DNA of 64,000 bases from an uncultured Clostridia bacterium (GTDB lineage: Bacteria > Bacillota > Clostridia > RUG12999): the NCBI GenBank assembly GCA_946555455.1, contig CAMNSU010000008.1, positions 226-64,225 of the forward strand, written 5' to 3'. Positions 28,744 to 57,244 of the stretch are shown in pieces (within the stretch, counting starts at the first letter, position 1; each line of letters opens with the position of its first letter). The position numbers and the translations under genes are program-made. The notes under the pieces are model-generated. The model did not search any database, was not told where the DNA came from, and worked only from the letters and a program-made list of their open reading frames with translations.

Positions 28744-28794
28744 CATAGGTTTGGACAGAGTCCAATATTTAAAGCTGTTTGTATATACAAACAG
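28744..28794. repeat. ~50-bp double-hairpin repeat, copy A
   Basis: CATAGGTTTGGACAGAGTCCAATATTTAAAGCTGTTTGTATATACAAACAG, near-identical to 57195-57244 in direct orientation. Confidence 0.9.
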
Positions 28795-28956
28795 CAGCGT
28801 CCTTGTTTCGCCATTGGCTATGATACACCCGACAACTACTGCAAATGCTTCTATCGGTGGGAACTTGAGAAAAAAGATACTTTCTCAAAGCGTATTCTGA
28901 CCGAAGAACCTAGATTTGTTCAAAAGCGCAGGGCAATAGAAAAATAATATGTATCG

Positions 28957-29182
28957 TGTCTACTTTTGCTTTTGATATATTAACAGGTTTCAGAACAAGA
29001 TTTCAGTAAATATAGGCATTGTAAGAGACTAAAGATTTGTGTCCACTTTCAAAAACGAATTTCGGCAAAAAATATCGCTGATGTCTACTTTTGAAAAAGG
29101 TTACTTCTAAATAATGTCTTCCATGTCTACTTTCAAAAAAGAAAATTAAAAAATTTATATTTTTTATGTCTATTTTTATTGA
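28957..29182. repeat. Phased TGTCTACTTT motif array with ~42-bp period
   Basis: Copies start at 28957, 29040, 29082, 29124 and 29167 (spacings 83, 42, 42, 43). Confidence 0.8.
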
Positions 29183-29259
29183 CAAGTACATGATGCTATT
29201 ATAAAATCTTGTTTTTGTGAAATAATATACTTGCAATAACATCGATTTCGTGTTATAAT
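29179..29259 (+). promoter_or_regulatory. Two tandem sigma-A promoters upstream of the AAA gene
   Basis: TTGACA-17-TAAAAT (29179-29207) and TTGCAA-17-TATAAT with TG extension (29231-29259). Confidence 0.75.
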
Positions 29260-29297
29260 ATTATTATGCAAATCTCGTTTTCGTGCAGGAGGCTGTT

Positions 29298-30650
29298 ATG
29301 AAAAGAAAAATTTATGATAAATTATTGGCTTGGAAAAGTACTTCAAATGGCGATACCGCGCTTTTGATTGATGGCGCTCGCCGTGTTGGTAAGAGTTATA
29401 TTGCCGAAGATTTTGCAAAAAAAAATTATAAATCATATATTCTTATTGACTTTAACAAAGTGAATGAAGATGTATGCAATTTATTTGTTAATTATCTTGA
29501 CGATTTAGATACCCTTTTTATGTATTTATCAAGTTATTATAATATCAAACTGTATGACCGTGAAAGTGTTATTATCTTTGATGAAGTGCAAATGTTCCCC
29601 AAGGCAAGGGCTGCTATAAAATATTTAGTTGCAGACGGAAGATATCATTATATAGAAACCGGCTCTTTAATGTCAATCCGCAAAAATGTAAAGGATATTA
29701 CTATTCCATCAGAAGAAAGACATATTCGCATGTACCCAATGGATTTCGAAGAATTTTTATGGGCAATGGATAATGAAATGCTAATGCCTATTATACGAGA
29801 TTGTTTTGAAAGAAAAAAGTCTATGGGACAAATGTTCCACCGCAAAGCTATGGATTATTTCCGTCAGTATATGATTGTAGGCGGTATGCCTCAGGCTGTA
29901 GAGAAATATACCAAAACCAGAGATTTTGAGGCTGTTGATGCTGTTAAACGCGATATTTTGACACTATATCGTGAAGATATTATGAAGCATTCTGATGGTA
30001 ATGAACTCGAAATCGAAGCAATTTTCGATGAAATTCCGGCACAGCTTTCCAAGCATGAAAAGAAATTTAAGTTGAGTGACATAAAACCCTCTGCAAGAAT
30101 GCGAGAATATAAGCAACCTTTTTATTGGCTTGATGATGCAATGATTGTTAATACCTGTTACAATTCTTCAGAACCTAATATTGGTTTAAAAATGAATATG
30201 GAACGAAAAACTTTAAAATGTTATATGGCTGATACAGGTCTTCTGATAAGCCATGCGTTTGATGAAAATGGAATTGTTAATGAAGAAATATATAAAAAAT
30301 TGCTCTTTGATAAGCTATCTGTAAATTCAGGAATGCTTATGGAAAATATCGTAGCACAAATGTTAACCGCCGCAGGTCACAAATTATATTTCTTTTCTAA
30401 ATCTTCAAGAGAGAACGCCGAAGACAGAATGGAAATAGATTTTTTAATTGCGAAAAGTAAAATAACAAATAGACACAACATTTCACCTATCGAAGTGAAA
30501 TCGGGTGACAGATATACTCTTTCATCTATTAAAAAGTTTATGAAAAAATATAAAGAGCAGACTAATATTCCGTATATTCTTCATACCAAAGATTTAAAAG
30601 AAGAAAATGGCGTTACTTATTTGCCGTTGTACATGACAATGTTGTTGTAA
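29298..30650 (+). CDS. AAA+ ATPase with DUF4143 domain
   Basis: Walker A GARRVGKS, Walker B IIFDEVQ, GGMPQ, YMADTGLL and C-terminal EIDFLI...PIEVKSG. RBS AGGAGG. Confidence 0.93.
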   Translation: MKRKIYDKLLAWKSTSNGDTALLIDGARRVGKSYIAEDFAKKNYKSYILIDFNKVNEDVCNLFVNYLDDLDTLFMYLSSYYNIKLYDRESVIIFDEVQMFPKARAAIKYLVADGRYHYIETGSLMSIRKNVKDITIPSEERHIRMYPMDFEEFLWAMDNEMLMPIIRDCFERKKSMGQMFHRKAMDYFRQYMIVGGMPQAVEKYTKTRDFEAVDAVKRDILTLYREDIMKHSDGNELEIEAIFDEIPAQLSKHEKKFKLSDIKPSARMREYKQPFYWLDDAMIVNTCYNSSEPNIGLKMNMERKTLKCYMADTGLLISHAFDENGIVNEEIYKKLLFDKLSVNSGMLMENIVAQMLTAAGHKLYFFSKSSRENAEDRMEIDFLIAKSKITNRHNISPIEVKSGDRYTLSSIKKFMKKYKEQTNIPYILHTKDLKEENGVTYLPLYMTMLL

Positions 30651-31263: not shown

Positions 31264-32541
31264 TTATATTCCGACAATTTCCCGCACTTGTTTTGCCTGC
31301 ACTTCCCGCAGCTCACAGTTTTCTCTTACAGCAATTGCTGCTGCTGCGCCCGCTGCATGACCGATTGCCACACAAATCGGCATCGCTCTAAAATTAGAAT
31401 GTGCAATATGTGTCCCTGATATATTTCTGCCTGACAGCAGCAATCCATCAATTTTCTCCGGCACAAGACATCCGTACGGTATGGTATAACCGTTCTCCTG
31501 CTTAAATTCATCTTGCGCACCGGTTTCATCAAGACCAGCCCCGCTGATGTTATGTACATCAAAATTAAAGTGCGCGTCCTTCACAACATAATCCTCAAAG
31601 ATACGCGCTTCTGAGATGTCTCGTTCCGTGATGGTATCAACACCTTTGAAATGCCGTGTTTCACGGATTCCGATAAGAGATGCCGATGAGATAATATAGC
31701 AATTCTCGTATCCCGGTGCATATTCTCTTAAAAATGCAACAATTTTATCCATTTGATTTCTGCAAACAATCGTCCCCGCTGTAAGGTCTTCCGCTTTCGT
31801 TCCGTCCACATCAAGGCAATTTGTCATGTTGCAGGTAACCACTCCGGGTAGGGTGGTTCGATACAAAAGCACATGTCCTGCCGGCGCGCCAATGATTTCT
31901 TTACCCAACGCTTGCAATTCTCCGTTCTCTGTTGGAACAAGCGTTTCAAAAGAACCTGGGAACACCGCGCGGCTGTAATCCACTCCGCCGACTTTGAACA
32001 TAATGGTGCAGGGCTGCATTTTATTATCGCTTTCCCGTCCAAGCATAAACTCCGCACCCGCTTTATATGCCACGTCTCCATCCCCCGATGCATCAACCAC
32101 ACAATGCGCAAAAATTGCACTTCTTCCTGTTTTATTTTCTATAATAACACCCTTTACGGCATCCCCCTCCATAATCACATCACTGAAAAACGTATAGAGC
32201 AAAACTTCAACCTTTGCCTCCTGCATCATTTCAAGGTATAAAGTCTTTAATTTTTCAGGATCAATAGTTATAGTGATAACCCCTTTGTGCTCTCCCTCAT
32301 TACGTTCCGCACTGCGCATCAATATCTCATGATAGATTTTATCGTCCACATTTCCTGTCCAGTGACTCATCATTCCCGCTGTAGCAATACCGCCGAGTGC
32401 TCCGCATTGTTCAATCAACACAACGCTGCATCCGTTCCGCGCCGCCGCAAGCGCCGCTCCAATACCGGCGGGACCGGAACTCACAACCACTACATCTACT
32501 CGTTTCGCTCGTAATTCCCTTGCTTTTTCTTGATATGTCAT
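31264..32541 (-). CDS. FAD-dependent oxidoreductase (FAD_oxidored-like family)
   Basis: N-terminal Rossmann strand DVVVVSSGPAG, LGGIAT, VVDASGDGD, GIRETR and IPYGCLVP...GRNISG motifs. Confidence 0.88.
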   Translation of the reverse strand: MTYQEKARELRAKRVDVVVVSSGPAGIGAALAAARNGCSVVLIEQCGALGGIATAGMMSHWTGNVDDKIYHEILMRSAERNEGEHKGVITITIDPEKLKTLYLEMMQEAKVEVLLYTFFSDVIMEGDAVKGVIIENKTGRSAIFAHCVVDASGDGDVAYKAGAEFMLGRESDNKMQPCTIMFKVGGVDYSRAVFPGSFETLVPTENGELQALGKEIIGAPAGHVLLYRTTLPGVVTCNMTNCLDVDGTKAEDLTAGTIVCRNQMDKIVAFLREYAPGYENCYIISSASLIGIRETRHFKGVDTITERDISEARIFEDYVVKDAHFNFDVHNISGAGLDETGAQDEFKQENGYTIPYGCLVPEKIDGLLLSGRNISGTHIAHSNFRAMPICVAIGHAAGAAAAIAVRENCELREVQAKQVREIVGI

Positions 32542-32603
32542 GTGACATCCCTCCTATAAAATAATCGGCGTTTTTGTTTTACTGTCTCTGTGTTCGTCTT
32601 AAA

Positions 32604-34331
32604 TTAAGCCATTTCCGCCAAGCTATCTAAAATCGGCGTTTCGGAGAACTCCATATATCCATCTTCCCCATACAAATCAACAACAGCAATTTCGTTTTTT
32701 CCCTTTCTTAAAATCCCCTTGGGCACGTACAAGGTCTGCTGTGGACCTATGTAATAATATCTTCCTAAATTAAATCCATTCATGAATACAACACCCCGCC
32801 GGAAACCGCACGGTTTTATAAATGTGCTGCATAGTTTATCGGCTTCAAAACTGCCGCAATATACAGTTGGCATACCGCGCCTTGCCCCCTCCGATATATT
32901 AGGAATATGGTGAAACGGCAGGGTATTGATTCGATAGCCCTTTACCTCTCTGCCGCCGATTTTTATATTCTCAAGCAATCCTTTTTTATCATATACACGC
33001 GCGCCATAGTTGATACGTCCTGCATTTTCCACCAGCAGCTTTAATGACTTTACGCCGCTTACCGTTATAGTTTTATAATCTGTTCCGCGCACATATTCGC
33101 CAATCCGTTGATTATCTGCATATATCATAATTCTATCGTGCGGCTCACCAACCTCCAGTTCCCCGTCAAAGCCTTCAACATTTACCTCGTATAAAATATA
33201 TCCGTATGCTTGCCCTAACGCCTCCATATTGACAGCGTTCTCATTCTCAAACGCAGAACCCAACTCATTAAGGTTATTGAATATATCATACTTTTTAAAT
33301 TCAGTTACCGTTTGGTATATCGTTTTCCTTCCATTTTCCATTACGCTGCCGGAGCCTGTCAGCAATTTTTTCAGCAACCGGTATTGCTCGGTAATATCTC
33401 CGCTTTCCGAAAGCGCTGCTCCATAGTCATAGCTTGTTATGCATGGTTCAAAAGTTGGATTGCAATTAGAACCGTTTTGAAATCCAAAATTTGTACCACC
33501 GCTGAACATATAAATATTAAAACCACCGCCCATCTCCAAAATGCGCTTAATTTCTGCTACCGGCTCCTCGGGATTTCTAGTATGATGCGGCGTTCCCCAC
33601 TGGTCAAACCACCCGTTCCAAAACTCCATACATACCTTGGGCTGGTTCGGACGCAGAGTATCCAATTTGTCAAAAGCCGTTTCCATATTCGAGCCGCAGT
33701 TTACCGTCATAAGCGCATCACCAATGCTGCCTCGCTCCAAATCATCGTTCCAATAACCGTCGGAAGTGAACAACAAAACATCACAGCCTAATTCCCGCAA
33801 AAGATTTTTAAGATATTCTAAATATCCTTTATCATTTTTCGGATATGCACCAAATTCATTTTCCACTTGCACAGCAATGATATTGCCGCCATTTGTGGTT
33901 AAATGCGGTTTAATAATCTCCATCACTTTAATAAAATAGTTTCTGACAAGGGACACATAAACCTTGTTATATGTACGCAGTTCCAGCCCTTCCATATTCA
34001 GCAGCCAATACGGAAACCCTCCCATTTCCCACTCGGCACAAATATATGGTCCGGGACGAACAATCATACATAAATCCAGTTCCTCTGCAAGCGCGATAAA
34101 TTGTTTCAAATCCGCCATGCCTTCAAAGCAAAATCCACCCTGTTCCGGCTCATGGACATTCCACGGTATATATGTTTCCACCGTATTTAATCCGCAGTCC
34201 TTCAACTTTTCCAAACGCTCCCGCCATTCCGACGGATGGATCCTGAAATAGTGAATTGTCCCCGATTTTAAGACAAAATTCTCTTCACCAAGATATAATT
34301 GATTTCCCCTGATGGTTAAATTTTCTTTCAT
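32604..34331 (-). CDS. GH35 beta-galactosidase
   Basis: HYFR, TYIPWNVHEP, RPGPYICAEW, acid/base QVENEFG, nucleophile MEFWNGWF and YMFSGGTNFG motifs. Confidence 0.95.
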   Translation of the reverse strand: MKENLTIRGNQLYLGEENFVLKSGTIHYFRIHPSEWRERLEKLKDCGLNTVETYIPWNVHEPEQGGFCFEGMADLKQFIALAEELDLCMIVRPGPYICAEWEMGGFPYWLLNMEGLELRTYNKVYVSLVRNYFIKVMEIIKPHLTTNGGNIIAVQVENEFGAYPKNDKGYLEYLKNLLRELGCDVLLFTSDGYWNDDLERGSIGDALMTVNCGSNMETAFDKLDTLRPNQPKVCMEFWNGWFDQWGTPHHTRNPEEPVAEIKRILEMGGGFNIYMFSGGTNFGFQNGSNCNPTFEPCITSYDYGAALSESGDITEQYRLLKKLLTGSGSVMENGRKTIYQTVTEFKKYDIFNNLNELGSAFENENAVNMEALGQAYGYILYEVNVEGFDGELEVGEPHDRIMIYADNQRIGEYVRGTDYKTITVSGVKSLKLLVENAGRINYGARVYDKKGLLENIKIGGREVKGYRINTLPFHHIPNISEGARRGMPTVYCGSFEADKLCSTFIKPCGFRRGVVFMNGFNLGRYYYIGPQQTLYVPKGILRKGKNEIAVVDLYGEDGYMEFSETPILDSLAEMA

Positions 34332-34353
34332 ATCATTATCTCCCTTGCTGCTT

Positions 34354-36069
34354 TTAAATCGTTTTTACTGCCACGACACCCGATACAGGAACAGGAAACT
34401 TTTCAACCTGCTGCTGTACAACGCCTCTTTCTATCAACCGTCCCATACAGTTATAAATATCAAAGGAATATTTCTTTTCCCCCGTTTCCAAATACAATCC
34501 GGCTGTACCTGTTCCGTTTATAAATACCGCATCATTTACTTGACTGTCAAGCCGCAGAAGTTTGTCGCCATAAGCCGCCGCCACAACATGCCCGTCTTTC
34601 TGCGCATATACCAAGGTATAATTCGCTTCCGGATGGAGCGCATGAATTGTGCCCTCTGTGATGGTTTTCCTGTTGCGTTTCCACAGCGCGAGGTAAAAAC
34701 GGAGCATGGCATAATGTTTTTCAGACAGTTCATTGATTCGTACGGAAATCTGCGGAACAGAAAACAAAATATTAATAAACTGATTTGCCGCTGATTCCAC
34801 GCTATCCTCATAATTCCACATCAGCATATCCGAATGTACTGCCGCCTGTGCGGAAGTCAGGCGCAGATTTACCGTTCGGATACGGTTGGTCACCGCGTCC
34901 ATTGGGCAGTCCGCCGCTCTGAGCATGTTTCCGTAGGTAAGCATTACAGGTCCAACATATTTCTGGCGGAACTCGATTAATATTTCCGGATTGATTGCTG
35001 TCAACCGCATATATATTTCCTTCAGCAATACACGTACAGCCTTTTCTACTGACAATATATCCATATCCGAATGAGATATACAGCTCTCCTGCTCAAACAT
35101 GAACCAGTCAATAAAATCCAATTTCAGTCCATCCAGCCCCCATTCCCTGACCGCCTGCTCATAGACAGAAACCAAATATTCTCTCACCTGTGGGTAGCGT
35201 GGGTCGAGCGTACCGTATTCCCCATTCGTATCATATAACATATTGCCGCTAAATCGTTCCCATACCTCCGAATATCTTCCTACGAAAGGCACACTGTACC
35301 ATAGCATGACTTTCATGCCAATTGTATGTACTTCGCTCACAAATGCTTTGATGTCCGGAATTTTACTTTTTGCCACCTTCCATGTCCCACAGTATGCATA
35401 TCCGCGGCTGTTGTCATCTGTTTGCCAGCCATCATCTATGATAACCGTTTTCATCCCCAATTCCGCTGCTGCTTTCAATTCATCTGTCAGTCTCGGCGAA
35501 AGTTGTTGATGATACGAATACCATGTGGAATATACCGGCTCAAATGCGTATGGATTTATCTTGGGAGGATATTCCTTTTGCCAGAGCGCAGCAGTTTCTC
35601 TTATCATTGTTTCATAAGGGATTCTGCGTTCGTCTATCCGCAAAACAGTACGATATTTTGTCATCATTTCAGTTCGCTCAGAAAACAACACAAGTTCCCA
35701 CGCAAGCTCTCCTGTTTCCTCAACTACGCCCGAACGTATTGTCATTGGTGTTTGCACATCGTCCGCCGATACCGTAACCACATTTTCTCCGCCGGCGGAA
35801 ATGTAACACTGCATCGGCATTCCGCAGGCGGAACGCGATACCGCTTCGGATTTTTGCCAATTGGGGCTAAGTCCATGCATATAAACCTCCAAAGGACTCC
35901 ATGCCATATAGCTGCCTGCTGCGCTTGTGTTCCATTTAATTTTTGTCTTTTCAGGTATAACAGCTTGCTTAAAATTTAATATTATTTCTATCTCGGTAAT
36001 TTCATTTGCCACAGATGAAACATTTAATATCAGCGTATCGCTTGATTTTGTGTGCAATGTAATACTCAT
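34354..36069 (-). CDS. GH36 alpha-galactosidase-like glycosidase (paralog of 3902-5656)
   Basis: WYSYHQ, IDDGWQTDD, GLKLDFID and EFRQKY motifs. Confidence 0.85.
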   Translation of the reverse strand: MSITLHTKSSDTLILNVSSVANEITEIEIILNFKQAVIPEKTKIKWNTSAAGSYMAWSPLEVYMHGLSPNWQKSEAVSRSACGMPMQCYISAGGENVVTVSADDVQTPMTIRSGVVEETGELAWELVLFSERTEMMTKYRTVLRIDERRIPYETMIRETAALWQKEYPPKINPYAFEPVYSTWYSYHQQLSPRLTDELKAAAELGMKTVIIDDGWQTDDNSRGYAYCGTWKVAKSKIPDIKAFVSEVHTIGMKVMLWYSVPFVGRYSEVWERFSGNMLYDTNGEYGTLDPRYPQVREYLVSVYEQAVREWGLDGLKLDFIDWFMFEQESCISHSDMDILSVEKAVRVLLKEIYMRLTAINPEILIEFRQKYVGPVMLTYGNMLRAADCPMDAVTNRIRTVNLRLTSAQAAVHSDMLMWNYEDSVESAANQFINILFSVPQISVRINELSEKHYAMLRFYLALWKRNRKTITEGTIHALHPEANYTLVYAQKDGHVVAAAYGDKLLRLDSQVNDAVFINGTGTAGLYLETGEKKYSFDIYNCMGRLIERGVVQQQVEKFPVPVSGVVAVKTI

Positions 36070-36085
36070 ATTTTACTCCGTTCTA

Positions 36086-38347: not shown

Positions 38348-38386
38348 GCCCGTTCCCCCTTGTATTTTTCTTATTTATAATTAGCA

Positions 38387-38427
38387 TAAGACAGACAGGT
38401 ACTATTTTTCTTTACCTATCTGTCTTA
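38387..38427 (-). terminator. Intergenic hairpin upstream of the AraC gene
   Basis: TAAGACAGACAGGTA / TACCTATCTGTCTTA, 14/15 complementary. Confidence 0.5.
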
Positions 38428-38447
38428 CGCTTAGTATTTCTTCCCGT

Positions 38448-46625: not shown

Positions 46626-46653
46626 ATTTGTTATCTCCACCTTTAGCCAGCTA

Positions 46654-49227: not shown

Positions 49228-49281
49228 TTTTTTCACTCCTTTGATGATACCGCTTTGAATCTCTATCTCTTTACACACTTT

Positions 49282-51816
49282 TTATCTGTATACAACGACC
49301 TGTGAAACCCCCGATCCTGACATACAAATTGCCAGATAATCACCCGGAACAATACTGCCAAACGGTTCCACACTCATTTTGTCCAATTCACTGTCATAAA
49401 CCATGACAGACGTAGACGGATTGGTTTTAAACGCCATCTCTTCCTCGGTATCAAGAAGGATTCTGCCGCTGGACGGTTCCGTTTTTTTCACAAATCCGGT
49501 CACAAGGCTTGCACCGCCATCTCTTTCATCGTCACTGGGCAGCTTTTTCACTTTTTCACCGCTGGCATCGACTACCAAAGCACAATTATCCGCCTTTCCG
49601 GTGCTGTCAAAATGCAGGCGTATCAAGTCGCCTTTCTCCAAAGACTGAAACAGTCCCATTTCTCCCTGGAAGGTAACGCCCGCATAAGTGGTGGACGCAA
49701 CATTAACAGTAGCTACCGTTTCCCCTTTCTCATTCACGGAAGTGCCGACTCCTTTCACCATATAATAGGAACCGCTGACCTCCCGAATAGATGAAACTGT
49801 TTGTTTGTGTACAATCATGTCCAGCATGTAGTAGTCATCTCTGTTATAGCCGGTAAAGGTATATGCCCAGTTGTTAAAGGAAGATGTCGCCGAACCGATT
49901 CGATAGTCGCTGTCCTCTGCCTCCTCTTCTTGAGGAATGATAAATACTGTAGTTGCTGCCGTCATATAATAGTGATTAGACCACGTTGGTCCGCTCCAGC
50001 GATAGGTATAGCGTTTTTCTCCTATCGTATTCAGCCTTGCCGGATCGATGCCGTCATAATATTCAATCGGCGTTTCCAAAACATTAATTTTCCCGTCTCC
50101 ATTCAGTCCGATGCCGATTACGCCCGGAACGGCTGCCATAACCTCCGTATTGGCTGCAGCTTCACTTCCTCTTAATCTGCCGCTTTCTCCATTCCATTTC
50201 ACCCTATCGGCAAACTCATATATCTGCCATGTACCGTCTGATAAAAATATTTTAATTTGGGATGCCGTGCCAATACCATTCTTATCATTGGCAATCTTTG
50301 TAGCATAACCATACAGTAACCCATCGTCGGACAAAGTCGTTGCAGAAACAATTTTCCCACTTGCATCCAGACGAATGGTATAAGTAGAATTCAAATTCAT
50401 CTTTCGCGCCATTGATACGTTATTTTTCACAGCAAGCAAATAAAGTTCTGAATACTCATATGTCTTATCGTCAATCACAACTGTTTTTTCTTCTTCATTA
50501 TATTCTTTTACCTTACCGCTGAACGCGTTTGTCTCTGCATTTATTTTTACCTTGCCGTTTTTATCGCTTCCTGCACGGTAAACACTGAGTACATCACCCG
50601 CCGCCAATTCTGACAGTCCTATCTCTGCACCGTTTTTGTAAACGGAAACATTTTCTTCTTTATATTCACTGAGGTCAATTTTTGCAAGCGCACCTTCAAA
50701 TTGATACTCACTATAAATCGTCTTTGCCGCCGTTGAAACTGTTGAAACAATCATTGTCTCGGCATATATCAGATTTACTAAATCATAGTTGCTATCTCCA
50801 TCATTGTCCACCAGCGCAATTTTTGTTCCTTCTCTTAAAAAATCCGCTTTACGGTAATCCGTATATAAAATATCGTTCAGCAGATATGCGGCATCAGCAG
50901 CAATCACAGCTTTTTCTGTTCTGTTACTTTCATCATTCTCATAATATTCTATTGTGCGGCAGTCATCAGAAATATTTTCTATCAACTCTCCGTCAATCAC
51001 TATTTCCTCTTTCGATAAATCTGCGACAGATACAACCGCATCATCGCCGGATTTCTCACTTCTGATATATGCCTCTACCCTATGCCCTAAAAGCGCTGCC
51101 GCATTTGGGCTTTCATCTTCATACATTATACTGTCTATAGAAACAAAGCCGTTTCTTGTACCGTTTTTATCGTAAAGACCGGTAATGCTGTTTGCTGTCA
51201 CAATTCCTTTTATGCAATAAATATTACGATAATATTCCAAAACAGGCTGCTTATTTTTTATATCAAGAACATTACCGTCACTTTGTATCGTAATCTGCGG
51301 ATGTTCTGCACCAAGAAGATTTTTCAATAGTTTCACCATCTGTGCATAGGTAACATTTCCGTTTAATTTCGCTCCGTTTAAAAGACCCTCCTGCTGTGCA
51401 ATGCCATAGTATCCATACGGATAGCCGCTTCCATCGGCAATTGCATCGTACCCAAGCACTCGCACCGCCATTGCTACAGCTTCATCAGCAGTCAAGACCT
51501 GAGAACTGTCCACAGCAGCGGCCGATCTGATAATACCCAAATTTTCTGCTTTTCTTAGAGCTTCACCGCTATATGCTATATCATATCTGTCGTTTGTCAC
51601 AAGATTCACCAGACAGTTGATAAAAGTGCTTTTATTCACTTCACCGCCCATGGTCAGCGTACCATCCTCTTGAATGCATATAATGCCAAGGCCTTGTAAA
51701 AGCAACAAGTCGGAATCTGTTTTTTCCTCGCCGCTTGTTCTATTGCCTGCTGCATATGCCGCGGCAGTTGATAATACAATCATGATAGAAATCATCAAAC
51801 ATAATAATTTTTTCAC
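49282..51816 (-). CDS. Secreted S-layer-like ~850-aa protein (paralog of 5669-8260)
   Basis: GTG start with AAGGAG RBS, signal peptide, degenerate SLH-like N-terminus, LVDNDGDSNYDLV motif, ends VVVYR. Confidence 0.7.
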   Translation of the reverse strand: MKKLLCLMISIMIVLSTAAAYAAGNRTSGEEKTDSDLLLLQGLGIICIQEDGTLTMGGEVNKSTFINCLVNLVTNDRYDIAYSGEALRKAENLGIIRSAAAVDSSQVLTADEAVAMAVRVLGYDAIADGSGYPYGYYGIAQQEGLLNGAKLNGNVTYAQMVKLLKNLLGAEHPQITIQSDGNVLDIKNKQPVLEYYRNIYCIKGIVTANSITGLYDKNGTRNGFVSIDSIMYEDESPNAAALLGHRVEAYIRSEKSGDDAVVSVADLSKEEIVIDGELIENISDDCRTIEYYENDESNRTEKAVIAADAAYLLNDILYTDYRKADFLREGTKIALVDNDGDSNYDLVNLIYAETMIVSTVSTAAKTIYSEYQFEGALAKIDLSEYKEENVSVYKNGAEIGLSELAAGDVLSVYRAGSDKNGKVKINAETNAFSGKVKEYNEEEKTVVIDDKTYEYSELYLLAVKNNVSMARKMNLNSTYTIRLDASGKIVSATTLSDDGLLYGYATKIANDKNGIGTASQIKIFLSDGTWQIYEFADRVKWNGESGRLRGSEAAANTEVMAAVPGVIGIGLNGDGKINVLETPIEYYDGIDPARLNTIGEKRYTYRWSGPTWSNHYYMTAATTVFIIPQEEEAEDSDYRIGSATSSFNNWAYTFTGYNRDDYYMLDMIVHKQTVSSIREVSGSYYMVKGVGTSVNEKGETVATVNVASTTYAGVTFQGEMGLFQSLEKGDLIRLHFDSTGKADNCALVVDASGEKVKKLPSDDERDGGASLVTGFVKKTEPSSGRILLDTEEEMAFKTNPSTSVMVYDSELDKMSVEPFGSIVPGDYLAICMSGSGVSQVVVYR

Positions 51817-51841
51817 CGGTTTATTCTCCTTTCCGCCGCAT

Positions 51842-53281
51842 CTATAGCAACCCATAAATCATTTTTGCAGCTTCTGCTCTTGTGCAGGTACCCTGCGGTC
51901 TGAAACTGCCGTCTTCCATTCCGTTAACAACGCCGCTTTCATAAAGCTTCTTTACCGCATCTGCTGCATATTCAGCTATCTGTCCTTCATCCCAAAACAC
52001 GCTATATTCTTTTTTTGTCTCAAGATTTTTACCGACATATTCCGCTGCCCTGCTAATCATAACCGCTGCATCTTGTCTGGATATTTTTAAACCAACGCCA
52101 AAAATGCTATCTGAAATTCCACTTACAATTCCCGCCGTTCTGGCCGCTCCGACATAAGAACAAAACCAGTCGTTTTTAAACACATCATTAAACGGACATG
52201 TTGCCCCCTCACTTGGAATACCATTTGCTTCCATCAACATTTTGACAAACTCTTCTCTTGTCACTGTATCATTTGGTCGAAAACGTCCGTTACCATCACC
52301 TGAAACAATGCCTTTTGCTGCAAGAGTCTCTACCGCTTCTCTTGCCCACTCTGCCTCGCCAAGGTCATAAAATCCGCCGTTCCCGCTTGGTTCGCCGTTT
52401 TCACCGACATTATCGGTTTTATTCTGTGAAGGCGCCTGTACGCCTACCACTCCGCCGCTGCCGGTTCCCCTGCCGGAACTTGTGCCTGAACCTGTCCCCT
52501 GCTGATTTCCTGTTGTTTTCAATGCTCCTGTAATTGCACTCGCAAGTGCGTTTGCAGTTGCTGCTGGATTTTTTGAAAGTGTTTGCACTAAAGCGCGTTT
52601 TTGTGTTTCTGTTGCGCCGGAAGAAAATTTTACAACGTCTGTATTCTGCGCAAGTCCCAAAAGTTCCATATATTTCCCGCACTCAGACGCAATATTGGCG
52701 GTTTTGGAATTATTAATAGTATACAATGCGGCAAAAACAGCGCAATCCTTTTGAAGCGCAACATGATCCGTATACGAAATGTTCTTCTTCACGCAATTGA
52801 TAACCCACGTTTCCATACTTTCATTTTTCACTTCCGACCACGTCTTATCAAGTATCTGAAAATCTAATTCTGTCAATGCAGCTTTCATACGGTTTTCTTC
52901 GCCGCTGTTAACCTCCGCTGTTAATAATGCTCCATTATCCGCTTCATTCAAATATTCTATCGGCTTATCTAATGTGTCGCCTGCTGTGTCTTTCATTTTC
53001 AGAACATAATTTCCGGATTTTTCCAAAGAAAAACTGACCGAAAATTTCCCATCGGCGTCAGCAGCCGCTTCACCAATAAAATATAATGTTTTATCATTTT
53101 CGCTTCCACGCACAGTGTATGTAACAATACTCCCTTTTTCGTCTGTAACCCCTTCAAACACAACTGCTGTACCGCGTCTGGTACAGTCCTGCTCTGTTAT
53201 CTGTGCATATGCCGGTACTGACAACATTGTCGTTACCATTAACAGAAAAGCTGTCCGTCTCAAAATATTTTTATATTTCAT
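51842..53281 (-). CDS. SLH-anchored surface protein (Ig-like, helical region, G-rich linker, 3 SLH)
   Basis: Signal peptide. SLH repeats FYDLGEAEWA...VTREEF, FNDV...ISRQDAA and FWDEGQIA...CTRAEAA. Confidence 0.9.
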   Translation of the reverse strand: MKYKNILRRTAFLLMVTTMLSVPAYAQITEQDCTRRGTAVVFEGVTDEKGSIVTYTVRGSENDKTLYFIGEAAADADGKFSVSFSLEKSGNYVLKMKDTAGDTLDKPIEYLNEADNGALLTAEVNSGEENRMKAALTELDFQILDKTWSEVKNESMETWVINCVKKNISYTDHVALQKDCAVFAALYTINNSKTANIASECGKYMELLGLAQNTDVVKFSSGATETQKRALVQTLSKNPAATANALASAITGALKTTGNQQGTGSGTSSGRGTGSGGVVGVQAPSQNKTDNVGENGEPSGNGGFYDLGEAEWAREAVETLAAKGIVSGDGNGRFRPNDTVTREEFVKMLMEANGIPSEGATCPFNDVFKNDWFCSYVGAARTAGIVSGISDSIFGVGLKISRQDAAVMISRAAEYVGKNLETKKEYSVFWDEGQIAEYAADAVKKLYESGVVNGMEDGSFRPQGTCTRAEAAKMIYGLL

Positions 53282-53313
53282 TCTCTTCCCTCCAATTCTG
53301 CATATTCCCGTTT

Positions 53314-54195
53314 CTATCCCTTTATACCACTCATCGTAAAGCCATTCATAATATGTTTTTGGAAAAAAACAAAGAGAATAGCCGGTGGTATGATAGAAAA
53401 TGTGATTGCAAGCAACAGCGTATTGATACCCATCTGCGTGTCCTGCTGCATAGCATATATCTTAACCATAATGGTTTGCACATTGTTGTCCTTCAAAATC
53501 ATATATGGCCAGAAAAAGTCTCCCCATGCGCCGCTGAATGCCATGATTGCTACCGTAGCAATTATTGGTTTAGATAACGGCAGTACAATCCGCGTAAACA
53601 CACTTAAATCGCCGCAGCCGTCCAGCTTTGCCGCTTCCAGCAATCCGGCGGGCAAGTCGTCAAAAAAGCTCTTAAACAGTATTACGTTGTACGCGCTTGC
53701 CCCGCACATCATCCATAACGGCCAATAGCTATTCATCAAGTTAAAGCCAAAAATCGGGAACTTGATAATATTTTTATAGACCGGCGCCATACATACGGTG
53801 GTTGGCAACATATAGGTCGATAAAATTATCGTAAATACAACCACTCCGCCTTTCACCTTCATTTTTGAAAGTGAATACCCCATTAACCCATTAATCGTAA
53901 TATTAAACAGAACACAGCCTGCACAGTATAACAATGTATTGCCGTAAAGCTTTGTAAAATCATATCTGCTGAACAATTCAGGTATTGCCTCAAAATGAAA
54001 ACTTCTCGGTAATATGGTGGGCGGAACACTGTAAAACTCATCTAAACTCTTTACCGACGATATAAGTACCCATGCGACAGGAAGAATGCAAATTGCCGCC
54101 ATAATAACAAGCAACACAATAATCGACCAATAAATCACTTTATAGGAACCTTTTTTATAATTAACGTTACTAATAATTCCCGTTCTTTCTTTCAT
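53314..54195 (-). CDS. Carbohydrate ABC transporter permease (MalG type)
   Basis: EAA motif LLEAAKLDGC, TM helices, C-terminal FQKHIMNGFTMSGIKG. Confidence 0.95.
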   Translation of the reverse strand: MKERTGIISNVNYKKGSYKVIYWSIIVLLVIMAAICILPVAWVLISSVKSLDEFYSVPPTILPRSFHFEAIPELFSRYDFTKLYGNTLLYCAGCVLFNITINGLMGYSLSKMKVKGGVVVFTIILSTYMLPTTVCMAPVYKNIIKFPIFGFNLMNSYWPLWMMCGASAYNVILFKSFFDDLPAGLLEAAKLDGCGDLSVFTRIVLPLSKPIIATVAIMAFSGAWGDFFWPYMILKDNNVQTIMVKIYAMQQDTQMGINTLLLAITFSIIPPAILFVFFQKHIMNGFTMSGIKG

Positions 54196-54206
54196 GTTTC
54201 TCCTCC

Positions 54207-55136
54207 CTATACGCTATCCTTCTTGCGCGTCACTCTAAAATAAAGAATTGAGAACCCGCAGAGGATAATTCCTGCTATCATTCCGACTGCAGATGACCGC
54301 CCCACTTGCATATAGGAAAACGCATAATTATATGCAGTCAGCATAATAGAGGTTGAGGCATTATTCGGACCGCCGCCGGTCATGGCAAGCGGCTGCTGGA
54401 ACACTTTGAAAACACCCATAATCTGCATCAGCAACAACATTTTAAGCAAACCGGAAACATGCGGTAATTGTATATGCCATATTTTACGCCAAAATGATGC
54501 CCCGTCAATCTCCGCCGCCTCATACAGCGAATGGTCAACCGATTGCAGTGACGCCAAATATATAAGCGCTGTTCCGCCAAATCCAGCCCATGCCATTGTC
54601 ACATTAATCAGCGGAATAGTCATAGTAGCATTTTGTAGCCATTGGAACGGTCCCAACCCCAGCTTTCCGAAAATCATATTTAAAAATCCGTTTGCATCGG
54701 GCTGAAAAAGAATTTTCCACATAATTGCCGTTACAATTCCCGGAATGATACACGGAAAATAGGCAGAAAATCGAAAAAACGCCTTGCCTCTCACTACCTC
54801 ATTGAGCATCATTGCAACAATCAATGGGGTAAAACCACCTATCACAATCGACCAAAAGGTATATGAGACAGAATTCCACACGGTCTTGATAAAAAGTGAA
54901 TCTGTAATAACATCTTTATAGTTTTGAAGTCCGGCAAAACGGACTGCCTCAAATCCTTTTGTTTCAAAAAAAGACAGATAGATTCCGACAATCATTGGCT
55001 GTATCACGAAAATAAGAAAGCAAATGCAACCGGGCAGCAGCATAAGCCACCCGGTTATATTGCGTTTTATCTTATCAGACATCATTGAATTATGTATTCC
55101 AATCCTGCTTTTACTAATGGAAACATCTGATTTCAT
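54207..55136 (-). CDS. Carbohydrate ABC transporter permease (MalF type)
   Basis: FAGLQNY and EAA motif LYEAAEIDGA. Start placed at 55136 by the RBS. Confidence 0.95.
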   Translation of the reverse strand: MKSDVSISKSRIGIHNSMMSDKIKRNITGWLMLLPGCICFLIFVIQPMIVGIYLSFFETKGFEAVRFAGLQNYKDVITDSLFIKTVWNSVSYTFWSIVIGGFTPLIVAMMLNEVVRGKAFFRFSAYFPCIIPGIVTAIMWKILFQPDANGFLNMIFGKLGLGPFQWLQNATMTIPLINVTMAWAGFGGTALIYLASLQSVDHSLYEAAEIDGASFWRKIWHIQLPHVSGLLKMLLLMQIMGVFKVFQQPLAMTGGGPNNASTSIMLTAYNYAFSYMQVGRSSAVGMIAGIILCGFSILYFRVTRKKDSV

Positions 55137-55155
55137 TGTATCTATACCCCCGCCG

Positions 55156-56541
55156 TTAATTATTCTTATCAAGAAAATCTCTTTGGAAGTTACTGTTTGC
55201 CTGTTTTACCAAAGCCGGGATATCCGCATTTTGATTGGTTAAAATCTCTTGTACAATAGAAGAAATCACTTGATACAACTGCTGTGCGTCTACCGGTTCC
55301 TCTGCTCTAAGAATAAGATTATCAGAATACACTGTATTCCAACGTTTTTCATCTACATTCAGATATTCTTCTTTTGCTTTTTTAATCTGTTCTACCCGCT
55401 CCGCTTCTTTAAAAATGCTGAAATCCATATTTGTAATGGCTTCATTTTTCTCATATTGCGTCTTATACCGTTCTTTTTGCCGTTCTATCGCGCTGTCGTC
55501 CAATTTTAAACCATTTCCTCTGATATCCAGCCATTTAAAAATTGCATCCATTTGTTCGGATGTTGTATCCGGTGAAACCATCCAAATATCTCCGCCAATC
55601 TGTGTGTATGCGCCTGCCGGTCCTGCAGGAACAGGCGAGTTCGAGATATTGTCCTTGCTCATACCATAAGCCGAAATCATCCCATTTGCCCAATCTGTCG
55701 GTGCATATGTACACGCTACTTGATCTGTCGCAAATAATTGCTGTACATCTTTTACTGCCAGCAGAATATTTTCCGGAAGCACATTATCCTTCCACTTCAA
55801 ATCGCTGATATATTGCATTAAATTTATCATTTCAGGACTATCAAAAGTAGCCGTCCACTTTCCATCTATCTGTTCCATAAAATCTACGCCAAACGACCAT
55901 GCCATACTCATCAGCATCCAACCACTGTTTGTTGGGAATGTAAAGCCCGCTTTACCTGTTTTTTCCTTTATTGTAATTGCCGTTTGTCTTAACTCTTCAA
56001 AATTTGTAGGATAAATCGGTTTCCCCTCTTCATCAACAAGTCCTGCTTCTTCAAACAGTTTTACATTATATATCATTCCAACAATATAAGCATTATATGG
56101 AACACCATAATATTTGCCATCTACTGTAACCAAATCCAAAACAGAATCTTTAAGTGCCGTATCAAAGCCGAATTCCTTAAATTTTTCTGAAATATCAGCC
56201 GCATAGCCCGCTTTTACGATTTTTGACACTTCAGTAAACGGCACTCGAAACATATTTGGAATTTGTCCGCTTGCAGCTGCCGGTAAAAAGGTATCCGCTG
56301 CATATTCATAGTGGTCCGGAATAATTTCAATCTCCGGATATTTTTCATTCATCGCCGCCAAATAACCTTCATAAAGTTTATAGTTGTCGGGTGAAACATC
56401 CTTTTGCGGCCAATATCCAATTTTAACGCTGACTTTACTGTCATCACCCTCCTTTTTTGATGTGCCGCAAGCCGAAATCAGGCAAGTACACATTGACATA
56501 ACCAAAACCAATGCAATGCTTTTTACGATTTTCATTTTCAT
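55156..56541 (-). CDS. ABC transporter solute-binding lipoprotein
   Basis: Lipobox LISAC and YYGVPYNAY..GMIYN motif. RBS GAAAGGA before 56541. Confidence 0.92.
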   Translation of the reverse strand: MKMKIVKSIALVLVMSMCTCLISACGTSKKEGDDSKVSVKIGYWPQKDVSPDNYKLYEGYLAAMNEKYPEIEIIPDHYEYAADTFLPAAASGQIPNMFRVPFTEVSKIVKAGYAADISEKFKEFGFDTALKDSVLDLVTVDGKYYGVPYNAYIVGMIYNVKLFEEAGLVDEEGKPIYPTNFEELRQTAITIKEKTGKAGFTFPTNSGWMLMSMAWSFGVDFMEQIDGKWTATFDSPEMINLMQYISDLKWKDNVLPENILLAVKDVQQLFATDQVACTYAPTDWANGMISAYGMSKDNISNSPVPAGPAGAYTQIGGDIWMVSPDTTSEQMDAIFKWLDIRGNGLKLDDSAIERQKERYKTQYEKNEAITNMDFSIFKEAERVEQIKKAKEEYLNVDEKRWNTVYSDNLILRAEEPVDAQQLYQVISSIVQEILTNQNADIPALVKQANSNFQRDFLDKNN

Positions 56542-57194
56542 CGTTTCCACTATCCTTTCATTGTGCAATTTGCACTTGTATAATTTGTACAATAAAATTA
56601 TACCTCACAATATCATTTATTGTATACAGGAAATTTCTCTTTACACCAGTAAATTTGCGTGGTTTCTTTGTTATAATGCGGGTTTTCATGCGATTACCGT
56701 ACCCGCTGGATATATTTTGAAATGTCAATTCCAAAGAAAAACGCGGGACAACGCCAAAGAAATTATTGCGAATTTTTTCAAAACCTTCATCCCGCCAGAG
56801 AATACGTTTTGCAGTATGCTTTCTTTAACTGCTCATCAATATATTTCATCTGTCGTGCTGTAAACTCTTGCATTATACTTTATTACGCCATGCAAGCGCT
56901 TGTCTGTTTATGTCGCTTACGGATTTTTACTTAATTCCAATCATTGTATCCATTGCTGGTAAAAAATTATTTCAGACAAAGCGCCCCCTTCTTTCAAGTT
57001 TACCTTTTGTCTATTCTCTGTATGGTCTGCACAGAACCAGTTTAAACTCGTAAAAAACCACGAAATCCTCAAACTGACAATTTAATGTGAAATTTCCTGT
57101 ATAGTTTCAAACCTTACCATTGCTTTCTCATTTGAGCGTCCTTTTTGCTCGTGTAACATCATAGCTCCTTTCTATGGCTGTACTCTCCTGTTCA

Positions 57195-57244
57195 CATAGG
57201 TTTGGGCAGAGTCCAATATTCAAGCTGTTTGTATATACAAACAG
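57195..57244. repeat. ~50-bp double-hairpin repeat, copy B
   Basis: CATAGGTTTGGGCAGAGTCCAATATTCAAGCTGTTTGTATATACAAACAG. Confidence 0.9.

What the first reader, a model, noticed from the sequence alone, without database searches (positions are those of the whole stretch)
28744..57244. Structured 50-bp direct repeat delimits a 28.45-kb unit: glycan loci may be stacked as cassettes
Seen: copies A (28744-28794) and B (57195-57244) are 28,450 bp apart. Each has a hairpin TTGGRC-AGA-GTCCAA (the A/G change keeps a G-T pair) followed by a perfect 20-bp palindrome CTGTTTGTATATACAAACAG. Both are preceded by a TATGGCTRTAC block. Each copy lies at the right-hand end of a unit with the layout [AAA-DUF4143 forward][glycan locus reverse][repeat]. 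Inference: these are recombination or capture sites (hairpin substrates as in attC or HUH-transposase ends) that build a tandem array of catabolic cassettes. Alternative: a duplicated leader or IS-end remnant, since a strong RBS and a 26-codon ORF (57162-57082, minus) follow copy B.
Basis: partly seen in the sequence, partly recalled or inferred. Interest (0 to 1): 0.8.

Follow-up and report, generated by a model that had tools for sequence, protein, structure and literature searches.

The report
Duplicated half of a transfer-origin-like module
The 50-base repeat is real, but it is one half of a conserved three-hairpin DNA module that, in related gut Clostridia mobile elements, sits just upstream of the DNA-transfer (relaxase) genes; here one whole and one broken copy bracket a 28-kb sugar-utilisation locus inside a mobile island, which is better explained by two related islands merging than by a dedicated cassette-capture system.

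Summary
Copies A (28744-28794) and B (57195-57244) exist, and weaker homology extends left to 28707 and 57173. The exact 20-nt palindrome occurs only twice in the window.

The repeat is not a glycan-cassette site. It is the hairpin-1 plus palindrome half of a ~95-nt module. The full module also has a conserved core GGCAAGCTTCC and a third hairpin, CGTCAC-N4-GTGACG. In 12 Clostridia loci this module lies directly upstream of a small ORF, a MobC/NikA-like gene and a PF03432 relaxase, which is the usual place for an oriT.

Copy B is a full module. It lies at the inner edge of an island backbone (HTH_17, TnpV, HTH_36, 153-aa ORF) that ends at a tRNA-Ser(CGA) 3' fragment (59081-59138). Copy A stops at the last base of the palindrome and is fused to the last 50 codons of an IS3-type transposase gene. 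It lacks the core and third hairpin, so it is probably inactive.

A diverged relative (L003/L018) joins A's left flank to B's right flank through one module, so the unit is absent there exactly at the repeat. Unit 2 encodes no recombinase.

Best reading: a relaxase-less island with an oriT-like module, whose two glycan loci were stacked by merging two related islands.

The parts
28707..28794 (-). Copy A: partial module. It has the TATGGCTATAC block, hairpin 1 (28751-28765, TTGGAC-AGA-GTCCAA) and the 20-nt palindrome (28775-28794). It lacks the GGCAAGCTTCC core and hairpin 3.
28795..28947 (+). Remnant of an IS3-family DDE transposase gene (last 50 codons plus stop), joined directly to the last base of the palindrome.
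   Evidence: phmmer found 111 relatives, best 88% identity; these carry rve/rve_3 domains; intact relatives read ...TTTTATAACCGG|CAGCGTCC at the breakpoint; an intact two-ORF IS is in L037
28958..29176 (+). Five TGTCYACTTT repeats, the last four spaced 42-43 bp apart, upstream of the AAA gene. They travel with the AAA gene and are not part of the repeat.
   Evidence: 78% match upstream of an AAA ATPase gene on a Vescimonas plasmid with no IS nearby
29283..30650 (+). AAA_14-DUF4143 ATPase, the first gene of unit 2.
   Evidence: 32% identical to the unit-1 AAA protein
31264..56592 (-). Glycan-utilisation locus 2: solute-binding protein, two permeases, SLH protein, CBM proteins, two GH42-like enzymes, AraC regulator, GH36-like, GH35 and FAD oxidoreductase. 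No mobility genes.
57082..57162 (-). 26-codon ORF with a strong ribosome-binding site, in the position where relatives have the first small gene of the mob operon. No homologue was found.
57173..57269 (-). Copy B: complete module. Read on the minus strand it runs hairpin 3 (CGTCAC-TTTG-GTGACG, 57254-57269), core GGCAAGCTTC (57245-57254), palindrome (57225-57244), hairpin 1 (57202-57216), then the TATGGCTGTAC block.
57279..58846 (-). Island backbone: 153-aa coiled-coil/HTH ORF, HTH_36 (Rep-like, shortened), TnpV and HTH_17 (Xis-like).
   Evidence: the same gene order occurs in L040; 91-94% DNA identity to L003/L018
59081..59138 (+). tRNA-Ser(CGA) 3' fragment (anticodon loop to CCA), the likely right-hand attachment site of the island.
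   Evidence: the sequence was read directly; ARAGORN finds no whole tRNA in the window; L018 has a homologous fragment in the equivalent position
25318..28691 (+). Histidine kinase and response regulator (AraC type) of unit 1. The last ~90 nt of the regulator gene plus the intergenic region (28601-28794) are shared with L003.

Best explanation
The repeat is the hairpin-1 plus palindrome half of a ~95-nt three-hairpin module. Read on the window's minus strand, the full module runs: hairpin 3 (CGTCAC-N4-GTGACG), the core GCAAGCTTCC, the palindrome TGTTTGTATATACAAACA (whose outer stem CAAGC/GCTTG leaves a TTCC bulge), a spacer, and hairpin 1 (TTGGGC-N3-GCCCAA). In related Clostridia mobile elements this module lies immediately upstream of a small ORF, a MobC/NikA-like gene and a MobA/VirD2-type relaxase. 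I therefore infer that it is the origin of transfer of that element family, probably overlapping the mob promoter and operator.

In the window the module belongs to a genomic island that ends at a tRNA-Ser(CGA) 3' fragment. The island shows no relaxase within the 59 kb in view. This fits a relaxase-less, oriT-only mobilizable island whose cargo is glycan-utilisation loci.

Copy B is the intact module. Copy A is a broken duplicate that ends at the last base of the palindrome, where it is fused by an illegitimate joint to the 3' end of a truncated IS3 transposase gene. It has lost the core and hairpin 3, the part a relaxase would need, so it is probably inert.

Both copies keep the same boundary between backbone and cargo (TATGGCTRTAC) but carry different cargo to their left. 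The two loci therefore come from two related islands that shared this backbone. Inferred: they were merged either by tandem integration at tRNA-Ser followed by a deletion running from the palindrome edge into the IS, or by recombination of a fragment of one island into the other through the shared ~50-90 bp. The 28.45-kb unit is not an autonomous cassette, and the repeat is not a dedicated capture site.
For: Shown:
- Twelve independent loci carry the full module upstream of mob genes. Pfam gives NikA-like/MobC and Relaxase PF03432 hits for L010.
- Copy B and its right flank match these modules over about 90-97 nt at 82-83% (52 nt at 96% in L007), including an identical 39-mer. Copy A matches only as far as the palindrome edge.
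- Both hairpins are kept through compensatory changes. Hairpin 3 occurs as GTCAC/GTGAC, GTCGC/GCGAC and GTCAT/ATGAC. Hairpin 1 occurs as TTGGGC/GCCCAA and TTGGAC/GTCCAA.
- The core GGCAAGCTTCC is unchanged in L040, whose neighbouring protein is only 38% identical to the window's.
- As single-stranded DNA the module folds into three hairpins, with z-scores of -3.7 to -4.7.
- The backbone gene order HTH_17-TnpV-HTH_36-ORF153 followed by the module recurs in L040. L003/L018 has a variant of it, with int, TnpV and a 60-aa ORF before the module.
- A tRNA-Ser(CGA) 3' fragment lies at the right end in both the window and L018.
- Copy A's right flank is the C-terminus of an IS3 transposase, with at most 1 nt of microhomology at the joint.
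- Unit 2 has no recombinase or relaxase.
- L003/L018 joins A-left (93% over 194 nt) to B-right (91-94%) through one complete module.
- Mouse-gut assemblies from several studies reproduce both window junctions.

From established knowledge: oriTs usually lie next to relaxase genes and contain inverted repeats 5' of the nic site. oriT-only islands ('iOriTs') are described in bioRxiv 10.64898/2026.01.13.699239. Elements with a PF03432 relaxase plus MobC are abundant in gut Clostridia (PMC12084326).
Against: - No relaxase lies next to the module in the window, L003 or L040, so the oriT role rests on position in relatives only. No nic site has been mapped.
- The module could be mainly a promoter or operator. 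A TTGTAT-17-TAATAC promoter-like pair overlaps the palindrome in the mob-type copies, though the simple scan found nothing convincing in the window.
- No close relative of the L010 relaxase was seen in four samples that hold the island, so no helper has been shown.
- A joint exactly at the edge of a perfect palindrome is an unlikely endpoint for a random deletion. This hints at a site-directed step that the merge-and-delete story does not require.
- L003 is a diverged relative (91-94% identity), not a near-identical strain. It cannot show whether the unit was inserted in the window's lineage or deleted in L003's.
Confidence: 0.58

Rival explanations
1. Relaxase-made joint. The nic site lies at the TTCC bulge at the edge of the palindrome. 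A relaxase that nicked there (or its covalent 5' intermediate) joined the palindrome side to a foreign 3' end inside the IS, or integrated an incoming transferred strand into the resident oriT. On this reading the stacking of the two loci is a by-product of conjugative DNA processing, that is, oriT-specific recombination.
For: The copy A breakpoint lies within 1 nt of the palindrome edge, at the unpaired TTCC bulge of the central hairpin. This is 9 nt 3' of hairpin 3, the geometry typical of relaxase sites (inverted repeat, about 8 nt, then nic; from established knowledge). The side kept in copy A is the side that would carry the relaxase-bound 5' end. Relaxase-catalysed integration into an oriT copy is documented for TrwC of plasmid R388 (PMC3264647, abstract seen). 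Other breakpoints also cluster at module edges: 57269|57270 in L041 and in runs X15 and X18.
Against: The nic site is unknown. The nearest match to the MOBP nick consensus (recalled from memory as YATCCTG|Y) would put the nic 2-3 nt inside the palindrome (TTCCTG|T), not at the joint. The IS side of the joint does not resemble the core, so it is not a pseudo-nic site. No relaxase is present in the window. Ordinary deletion explains the same structure.
Confidence: 0.15
2. The repeats are recombination or capture sites (attC-like, or HUH-transposon ends) for a dedicated system that builds tandem arrays of glycan cassettes, each unit being [AAA-DUF4143][locus][site].
For: Two units share the same gene-order layout. 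The unit is precisely absent at the repeat in L003/L018. A block of IS tail, phased repeats and AAA-DUF4143 gene recurs in other genomes.
Against: Related copies elsewhere lie upstream of mob genes, not between catabolic loci. No other half-module was found in two large collections. Copy A is a truncated copy fused to a truncated IS. The window has no integron integrase, Y1/Y2 HUH transposase or other recombinase. The two AAA proteins are only 32% identical, and the sequence upstream of unit 1 has a different layout.
Confidence: 0.07
3. The module is mainly a transcriptional control region: a promoter plus a palindromic operator for a repressor encoded in the backbone. The two copies are duplicated regulatory DNA that place both loci under island control.
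For: A perfect 20-nt palindrome is typical of a dimeric repressor site. The backbone encodes several HTH proteins. In the mob-type copies the module is followed directly by a ribosome-binding site and the first gene of the operon. Copy B is followed by a ribosome-binding site and a 26-codon ORF heading towards the solute-binding-protein operon.
Against: At copy A the minus-strand direction runs antisense into the 3' end of the AraC-type regulator gene, so it drives no gene. The promoter scan gives nothing above chance at either copy. Compensatory changes preserve hairpins 1 and 3 with variable loops, which is more typical of structured single-stranded DNA sites. This reading does not exclude an oriT role, because oriTs commonly overlap mob promoters.
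Confidence: 0.15
4. The repeats are attL and attR sites of a tyrosine integrase, and unit 2 is a decayed cis-mobilizable element (CIME) integrated next to the island by site-specific accretion.
For: In L003/L018 a tyrosine integrase gene lies about 570 bp from the module. Direct repeats flanking an integrase-less unit next to an integrated element are the CIME pattern (from established knowledge; composite elements are discussed in PMC12084326).
Against: The islands end at tRNA-Ser(CGA) 3' fragments, which points to the tRNA as the integrase's target. The module also occurs deep inside mob-type elements, between element genes and away from element ends. Copy A's right edge is inside an IS gene, so it is not a clean att joint.
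Confidence: 0.05

Closest known systems
oriT regions of MobA/VirD2-type (PF03432) relaxases with a MobC/NikA accessory protein, as in Tn1549-family (MOBP7) ICEs and IMEs of gut Firmicutes
   Same: In 12 loci the module lies directly upstream of the mobC-relaxase operon. It has inverted repeats flanking a short invariant core, and the repeats are kept through compensatory changes. The relaxase has a PF03432 domain and the accessory protein is MobC/NikA-like.
   Different: No copy has been tested for nicking or mobilisation. The published Tn1549 oriT sequence could not be retrieved for comparison. There is no sequence match in PLSDB plasmids and no Rfam family. The L010 relaxase is only 35-40% identical to plasmid MobA proteins.
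iOriT islands: integrative elements that carry an oriT but no relaxase or mating-pore genes (Ares-Arroyo et al., bioRxiv 10.64898/2026.01.13.699239)
   Same: The island is integrated at a tRNA gene. It carries an oriT-like module nearly identical to that of relaxase-bearing elements but is otherwise unrelated to them. No relaxase or type IV secretion gene is seen in 59 kb, and the cargo is adaptive genes.
   Different: That study covered six nosocomial species; this island is from an uncultured mouse-gut Clostridia organism with glycan-utilisation cargo. Only part of the island is visible, so a relaxase further left cannot be excluded. This island also has a second, truncated oriT copy.
Composite or tandem genomic islands formed by accretion at one att site, and their decayed derivatives (CIMEs)
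   Same: Two cargo blocks that share a backbone boundary lie head to tail next to one recombination/regulation backbone. A relative has the single-unit form.
   Different: The internal repeat is not the att site (tRNA-Ser) but part of the oriT-like module. The internal backbone and att site are missing, replaced by an illegitimate joint into an IS remnant.
Relaxase-mediated oriT-specific recombination and integration (TrwC of R388; PMC3264647)
   Same: The breakpoint sits at the edge of a hairpin next to the conserved core, in a geometry compatible with a nic site.
   Different: There is no evidence that a relaxase acted here. The partner sequence does not resemble the site, and copy A lacks the recognition half needed for further relaxase reactions.

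Membership tests
oriT of a PF03432 (MobA/VirD2-type) relaxase system | Lies next to the cognate relaxase and accessory genes | tested here: met
   Met in relatives L006-L011, L016, L019 and L021-L023. Not met in the window itself, L003 or L040, where no relaxase follows the module.
oriT of a PF03432 (MobA/VirD2-type) relaxase system | Inverted repeat(s) adjacent to a conserved nick-region core | tested here: met
   Hairpins 1 and 3 are kept through compensatory changes, and the core GGCAAGCTTCC is invariant across all full copies including L040.
oriT of a PF03432 (MobA/VirD2-type) relaxase system | Strand- and site-specific nicking by the relaxase, and cis-acting mobilisation | not testable with these tools
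   This needs in vitro nicking and mating assays.
oriT-only integrative element (iOriT) | Integrated island delimited by att repeats | tested here: inconclusive
   A tRNA-Ser(CGA) 3' fragment lies at 59081-59138.
oriT-only integrative element (iOriT) | Carries an oriT similar to that of a conjugative or mobilizable helper | tested here: met
   About 90-97 nt at 82-83% identity (52 nt at 96% in L007), with an identical 39-mer shared with relaxase-linked modules. This holds only if those modules are oriTs.
oriT-only integrative element (iOriT) | Lacks relaxase and mating-pore genes | tested here: inconclusive
   The ORFs scanned against Pfam between positions 1 and 59138 gave no relaxase or T4SS domain, and the genes called on Logan contigs of unit 1 show none either. 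The rest of the island is unseen.
Integron attC / gene-cassette array | Adjacent IntI-type tyrosine recombinase with attI, and promoterless cassettes each ending in an attC site | tested here: not met
   The window has no tyrosine recombinase. There are only two copies, and the 'cassettes' are 23-28-kb operons with their own regulators.
HUH (Y1/Y2) transposon ends (IS200/IS605, IS91/ISCR) | A Y1 or Y2 HUH transposase gene, with subterminal hairpins at both element ends | tested here: not met
   No such gene was found. The only transposase trace is a DDE (rve) IS3 remnant.
CIME / att-flanked accretion unit | The flanking repeats are the att sites of the neighbouring element's integrase | tested here: not met
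   The att site appears to be the tRNA-Ser 3' end. The repeat is unrelated to it, and in the mob-type elements it lies between element genes rather than at an element end.

The most novel reading that the evidence does not exclude
The palindrome edge is the nic site of this oriT family, and the joint at copy A was made by a relaxase. On this reading, conjugative DNA processing itself can paste a foreign cargo segment into an island's oriT and leave a dead half-oriT behind. This would be a natural route by which oriT-only islands in gut Clostridia stack glycan-utilisation loci.
Probability: 0.12. Interest if true: 0.75.

Novelty: new member of a known kind. Interest (0 to 1): 0.38.

Why it matters
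This work defines a previously unannotated, strongly conserved three-hairpin module, with no Rfam family and no PLSDB match, that marks the mobilisation region of a family of gut Clostridia mobile elements. It also shows that two large glycan-utilisation loci of a mouse-gut Clostridia organism ride on a tRNA-Ser island that keeps only this module. If the module is an oriT, these loci could be moved between gut bacteria by any helper that encodes the matching relaxase. That is relevant to how carbohydrate niches spread among Firmicutes. The truncated second copy is a useful natural marker of how such islands are assembled. It does not reveal a new cassette-capture system.

Tried and rejected
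I could not do a genome-wide copy count, look for the intact tRNA-Ser at the left end, or search this genome for a helper relaxase.
- Rfam gave no hit at gathering threshold and only chance-level hits at E<=1.
- PLSDB blastn with the module found nothing. The IMG/VR scan found nothing. The scan's own notes hold no look-alike sequence.
- Left extension of the window failed. Three Logan contigs all stop 452 bp left of position 1, which is 225 bp upstream of the unit-1 AAA gene, and show a different gene tail and no repeat.
- The Tn1549 oriT paper (PMC2812457) is not held, and no other paper quoted its sequence.
- I looked for excision or empty-site variants in sequencing runs. Only assembled contigs were available. 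The A-left/B-right joint seen in run X18 carries L003-type SNPs, so it comes from another strain and is not an excision product.
- A Xer/dif-like site was considered because of the 7-6-7 arm layout with a TATATA centre. I dropped it because the motif travels with mob genes.
- I first thought the phased 42-bp repeats were an IS end. I rejected that because they recur upstream of an AAA gene with no IS nearby.
- I considered a transposon pairing an rve transposase with an AAA_14 ATPase. I rejected it because the intact IS in L037 has no AAA gene.
- Microhomology-mediated deletion was considered, but only about 1 nt is shared at the joint.
- Relatives of the 26-codon ORF: none found among the fetched loci.

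Full report
**1. Observation**

A (28744-28794, 51 nt) and B (57195-57244, 50 nt) differ by two substitutions and one indel. The perfect 20-nt palindrome CTGTTTGTATATACAAACAG occurs at 28775 and 57225 and nowhere else in the window, even allowing three mismatches; 0 matches are expected by chance. A gapped local alignment extends the homology leftwards through the TATGGCTRTAC block. This gives 28707-28794 versus 57173-57244, with score 88 against a maximum of 29 in 300 shuffles. To the right of the palindrome the two copies share nothing.

**2. Gene map**

- Unit 1: AAA_14-DUF4143 (2-1081, cut at its 5' end), a minus-strand glycan operon (1276-23334), a phosphoesterase, and a histidine kinase plus AraC-type response regulator (25318-28691). 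Copy A follows.
- Unit 2: a 50-codon ORF tail (28795-28947), five phased TGTCYACTTT repeats, AAA_14-DUF4143 (29283-30650), and a minus-strand glycan operon (31264-56592). The operon encodes a solute-binding protein, permeases, an SLH protein, CBM proteins, GH42-like, GH36-like and GH35 enzymes, an AraC regulator and an FAD oxidoreductase. A 26-codon ORF and copy B follow.
- Right of B, on the minus strand: a 153-aa ORF, HTH_36, TnpV and HTH_17.
- Then a tRNA-Ser(CGA) 3' fragment at 59081-59138 (anticodon loop CTCGAAA, long variable arm, T-arm GGGTTCGAATCCC, CCA end). ARAGORN finds no whole tRNA in the window.
- The two AAA proteins are only 32% identical.
- Unit 2 encodes no recombinase or relaxase.

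**3. What the repeat is**

I scanned one genome per species (about 185,000 species) and the JGI metagenomes for the exact palindrome. This gave 20 loci.
- Six are unrelated contexts (L001, L002, L004, L005, L015, L017).
- Twelve Clostridia loci (L006-L011, L016, L019, L021-L023 and others) share a larger module. In the window's plus-strand orientation it reads: GGGTTTGGGC-N3-GCCCAA, a spacer, the palindrome, GAAGCTTGCC, then GTCAC-N4-GTGAC.
- Copy B and its right flank, up to 57269, form a full module. They share an identical 39-mer with these loci, and about 90-97 nt align at 82-83% identity.
- Copy A matches only up to the last base of the palindrome.

In the twelve loci the module sits directly upstream of a small ORF, a NikA/MobC-like gene and a MobA/VirD2-type relaxase (PF03432, E = 9.5e-38). 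In L006 and L009 a Fic gene lies in between. The relaxase is 35-40% identical to the MobA/MobC relaxases of small mobilizable Firmicutes plasmids. This is the usual position of an oriT.

Several features point to a structured functional site.
- Both outer hairpins survive through compensatory changes. Hairpin 3 occurs as GTCAC/GTGAC, GTCGC/GCGAC and GTCAT/ATGAC. Hairpin 1 occurs as TTGGGC/GCCCAA and TTGGAC/GTCCAA. The loops vary.
- The core GGCAAGCTTCC is unchanged even in L040, whose neighbouring protein is only 38% identical to the window's 153-aa ORF.
- As single-stranded DNA, the full module folds into three hairpins with z-scores of -3.7 to -4.7. The central hairpin has an outer stem CAAGC/GCTTG with an unpaired TTCC bulge.
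- There is no Rfam family, no PLSDB match and no IMG/VR match.

**4. The island**

The backbone order HTH_17-TnpV-HTH_36-ORF153 followed by the module recurs in L040. L003/L018 carries a variant of it: HTH, DUF6076, HTH_36, a tyrosine integrase, TnpV and a 60-aa ORF, then the module. It ends 6.3 kb away at a sequence that ARAGORN calls tRNA-Ser(cga). That sequence has a poor acceptor stem and D-arm, so it is also a 3' fragment.

The module is therefore an internal feature, about 1.9 kb from the island's right end. It sits at the boundary between the backbone and the cargo. No relaxase is seen in the 59 kb of island in view. This matches the recently described oriT-only islands, or 'iOriTs' (bioRxiv 10.64898/2026.01.13.699239). 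Such islands occur in a setting where elements with a PF03432 relaxase plus MobC are abundant (PMC12084326).

**5. The relative without the unit**

L003 (a Clostridia MAG) and L018 (a metagenome contig, 99% identical to L003) contain window 28601-28794 at 93% identity. This runs straight through a single complete module into window 57245-57281, 57565-57801 and 58145-58441 at 91-94% identity. So A's left flank and B's right flank are neighbours there, and the 28.45-kb unit plus one repeat copy is absent exactly at the repeat.

Three cautions apply.
- L003 is a diverged island, not a near-identical strain.
- It shares only the last 194 nt of A's left flank, with a truncated AraC gene followed by different cargo (PGA_cap, GDSL lipase, glucuronyl esterase).
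- Its single copy is a mixture of A-like and B-like variants, so it does not show whether the unit was gained or lost.

Logan contigs from several mouse-gut studies reproduce both window junctions exactly. The L003-type joint appears in run X18 and the L003-type left flank in run X15. Both carry L003 SNPs, so they come from another strain and are not excision products.

**6. The joint at copy A**

The ORF tail that starts at 28795 is the C-terminus of an IS3-family DDE transposase. phmmer found 111 relatives, the best at 88% identity, and these carry rve/rve_3 domains. An intact two-ORF relative sits between tgt and queA in L037. Intact relatives read ...TTTTATAACCGG|CAGCGTCC..., whereas the window reads ...ATATACAAACAG|CAGCGTCC....

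The palindrome is therefore joined to the middle of a transposase gene with at most 1 nt of microhomology. This is an illegitimate joint, not a transposition end and not a recombinase crossover between like sites. Copy A lacks the core and hairpin 3, which is the part 5' of any nic site that a relaxase needs (established knowledge of relaxase sites). It is therefore most likely inert. Only homologous recombination across the ~50-90 shared bases could remove unit 2.

**7. How the structure arose (inference)**

Both copies keep the same left boundary (TATGGCTRTAC) but have different cargo beyond it. So two related islands with the same backbone and different glycan cargo once existed. One of two routes gives the present structure:
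- (a) The two islands integrated in tandem at tRNA-Ser. A deletion from the palindrome edge of the left island into an IS near the start of the right island then removed one backbone.
- (b) A fragment of one island, already carrying the palindrome-IS joint, recombined into the other island's module through the shared bases.

Each route needs exactly one illegitimate joint. That this joint lies exactly at the palindrome edge, at the unpaired TTCC bulge and 9 nt from hairpin 3, is suggestive of a relaxase nick. Other breakpoints also fall at module edges: 57269|57270 in L041 and in runs X15 and X18. I keep a relaxase-made joint as a rival at about 15%. The IS side does not resemble the core, and the nearest match to the MOBP nick consensus (from memory) would lie 2-3 nt away.

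**8.

The hairpins probably are substrates of an HUH enzyme (a relaxase), and the presence/absence boundary does fall at the repeat. However, the repeat is not a cassette-capture site. Elsewhere it accompanies mob genes, not glycan loci. Only two copies are seen, and one of them is a broken remnant. The 'cassette' has no recombinase, and the unit-start AAA genes are distant paralogues.

The 225 bp visible upstream of the unit-1 AAA gene shows a different gene tail, with no IS remnant and no phased repeats.

**9. Novelty and interest**

This is a new, unannotated member of known kinds: an oriT-like module, a relaxase-less mobilizable island, and a composite island. It has modest interest because it places two large glycan-utilisation loci of a mouse-gut Clostridia organism on a potentially mobilizable island, and because it gives a clean natural marker of island assembly. 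I score interest at 0.38. The bolder reading, that a relaxase pasted cargo in at the nic site, has a probability of about 0.12.

Noticed in passing
window 28958-29176: Five direct TGTCYACTTT(T/C)RAAAA repeats, the last four spaced 42-43 bp apart, run into the promoter of the AAA_14-DUF4143 gene. A 78% match lies upstream of an AAA ATPase gene on Vescimonas fastidiosa plasmid pMM35_02 with no IS nearby, so the array belongs to the AAA gene's control region. The unit-1 AAA gene lacks it but shares the promoter-like sequence TTTCGTGTTATAATAT.
   Followed up: partly
window 28795-30650; L032 3001-5271; L033 1540-3810; L038 4001-6376: The block [3' end of an IS3 transposase gene][phased repeats][AAA_14-DUF4143 gene] recurs in at least four unrelated contexts, with different 5' truncation points of the transposase (fused to an integrase N-terminus, to OrfA, and so on). 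Why the 3' fragment is kept together with the AAA gene is unexplained.
   Followed up: partly
window 59081-59138: A tRNA-Ser(CGA) 3' fragment (anticodon loop to CCA) marks the probable right end of the island. L018 6391-6477 has a homologous fragment with a different tRNA sequence, which ARAGORN miscalls as a whole tRNA.
   Followed up: partly
window 57279-57740 and 57849-58154: The backbone genes are mosaic. The first 60 codons of the 153-aa ORF are shared with L003, but its C-terminal HTH part (57282-57564) is absent there. A perfect 17-nt hairpin (57806-57844) and a 22-bp tandem repeat lie at the break.
   Followed up: partly
L041 after position 844; loose ends at window 57269 in runs X15 and X18: In some genomes the homologue of the 153-aa ORF is followed by unrelated DNA, starting exactly at the outer edge of hairpin 3 (GGACGATAC|AATAACTTGC). 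The whole module is therefore a discrete present-or-absent segment with sharp edges.
   Followed up: partly
L019 ~3860-3887; L022 ~7960-7990: Natural module variants. L019 has lost hairpin 3 through a deletion between two GCCGT repeats. L022 has a duplicated GCCGTCACTT. Both still lie upstream of mob genes.
   Followed up: no
window 56623-56643 and 57083-57103: A 21-nt inverted repeat (90% complementary) brackets the 440-bp leader between the end of the 26-codon ORF and the start of the solute-binding-protein gene of locus 2.
   Followed up: no
452 bp left of window position 1 (L012-L014, L034-L036): Logan contigs from three runs all end at the same base, 225 bp upstream of the unit-1 AAA gene, inside a plus-strand gene tail (...YASGYRFLGTTSETVRYAVSGMQERIKAGII*). 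This suggests a repeat or a strain branch point just beyond.
   Followed up: partly
L006 / L009 (Fic gene, L009 3992-5086): A Fic/DOC-family gene is inserted between the module and the mobC-relaxase genes in one sub-family. This would be the first DNA to enter a recipient if transfer leads from that side.
   Followed up: no
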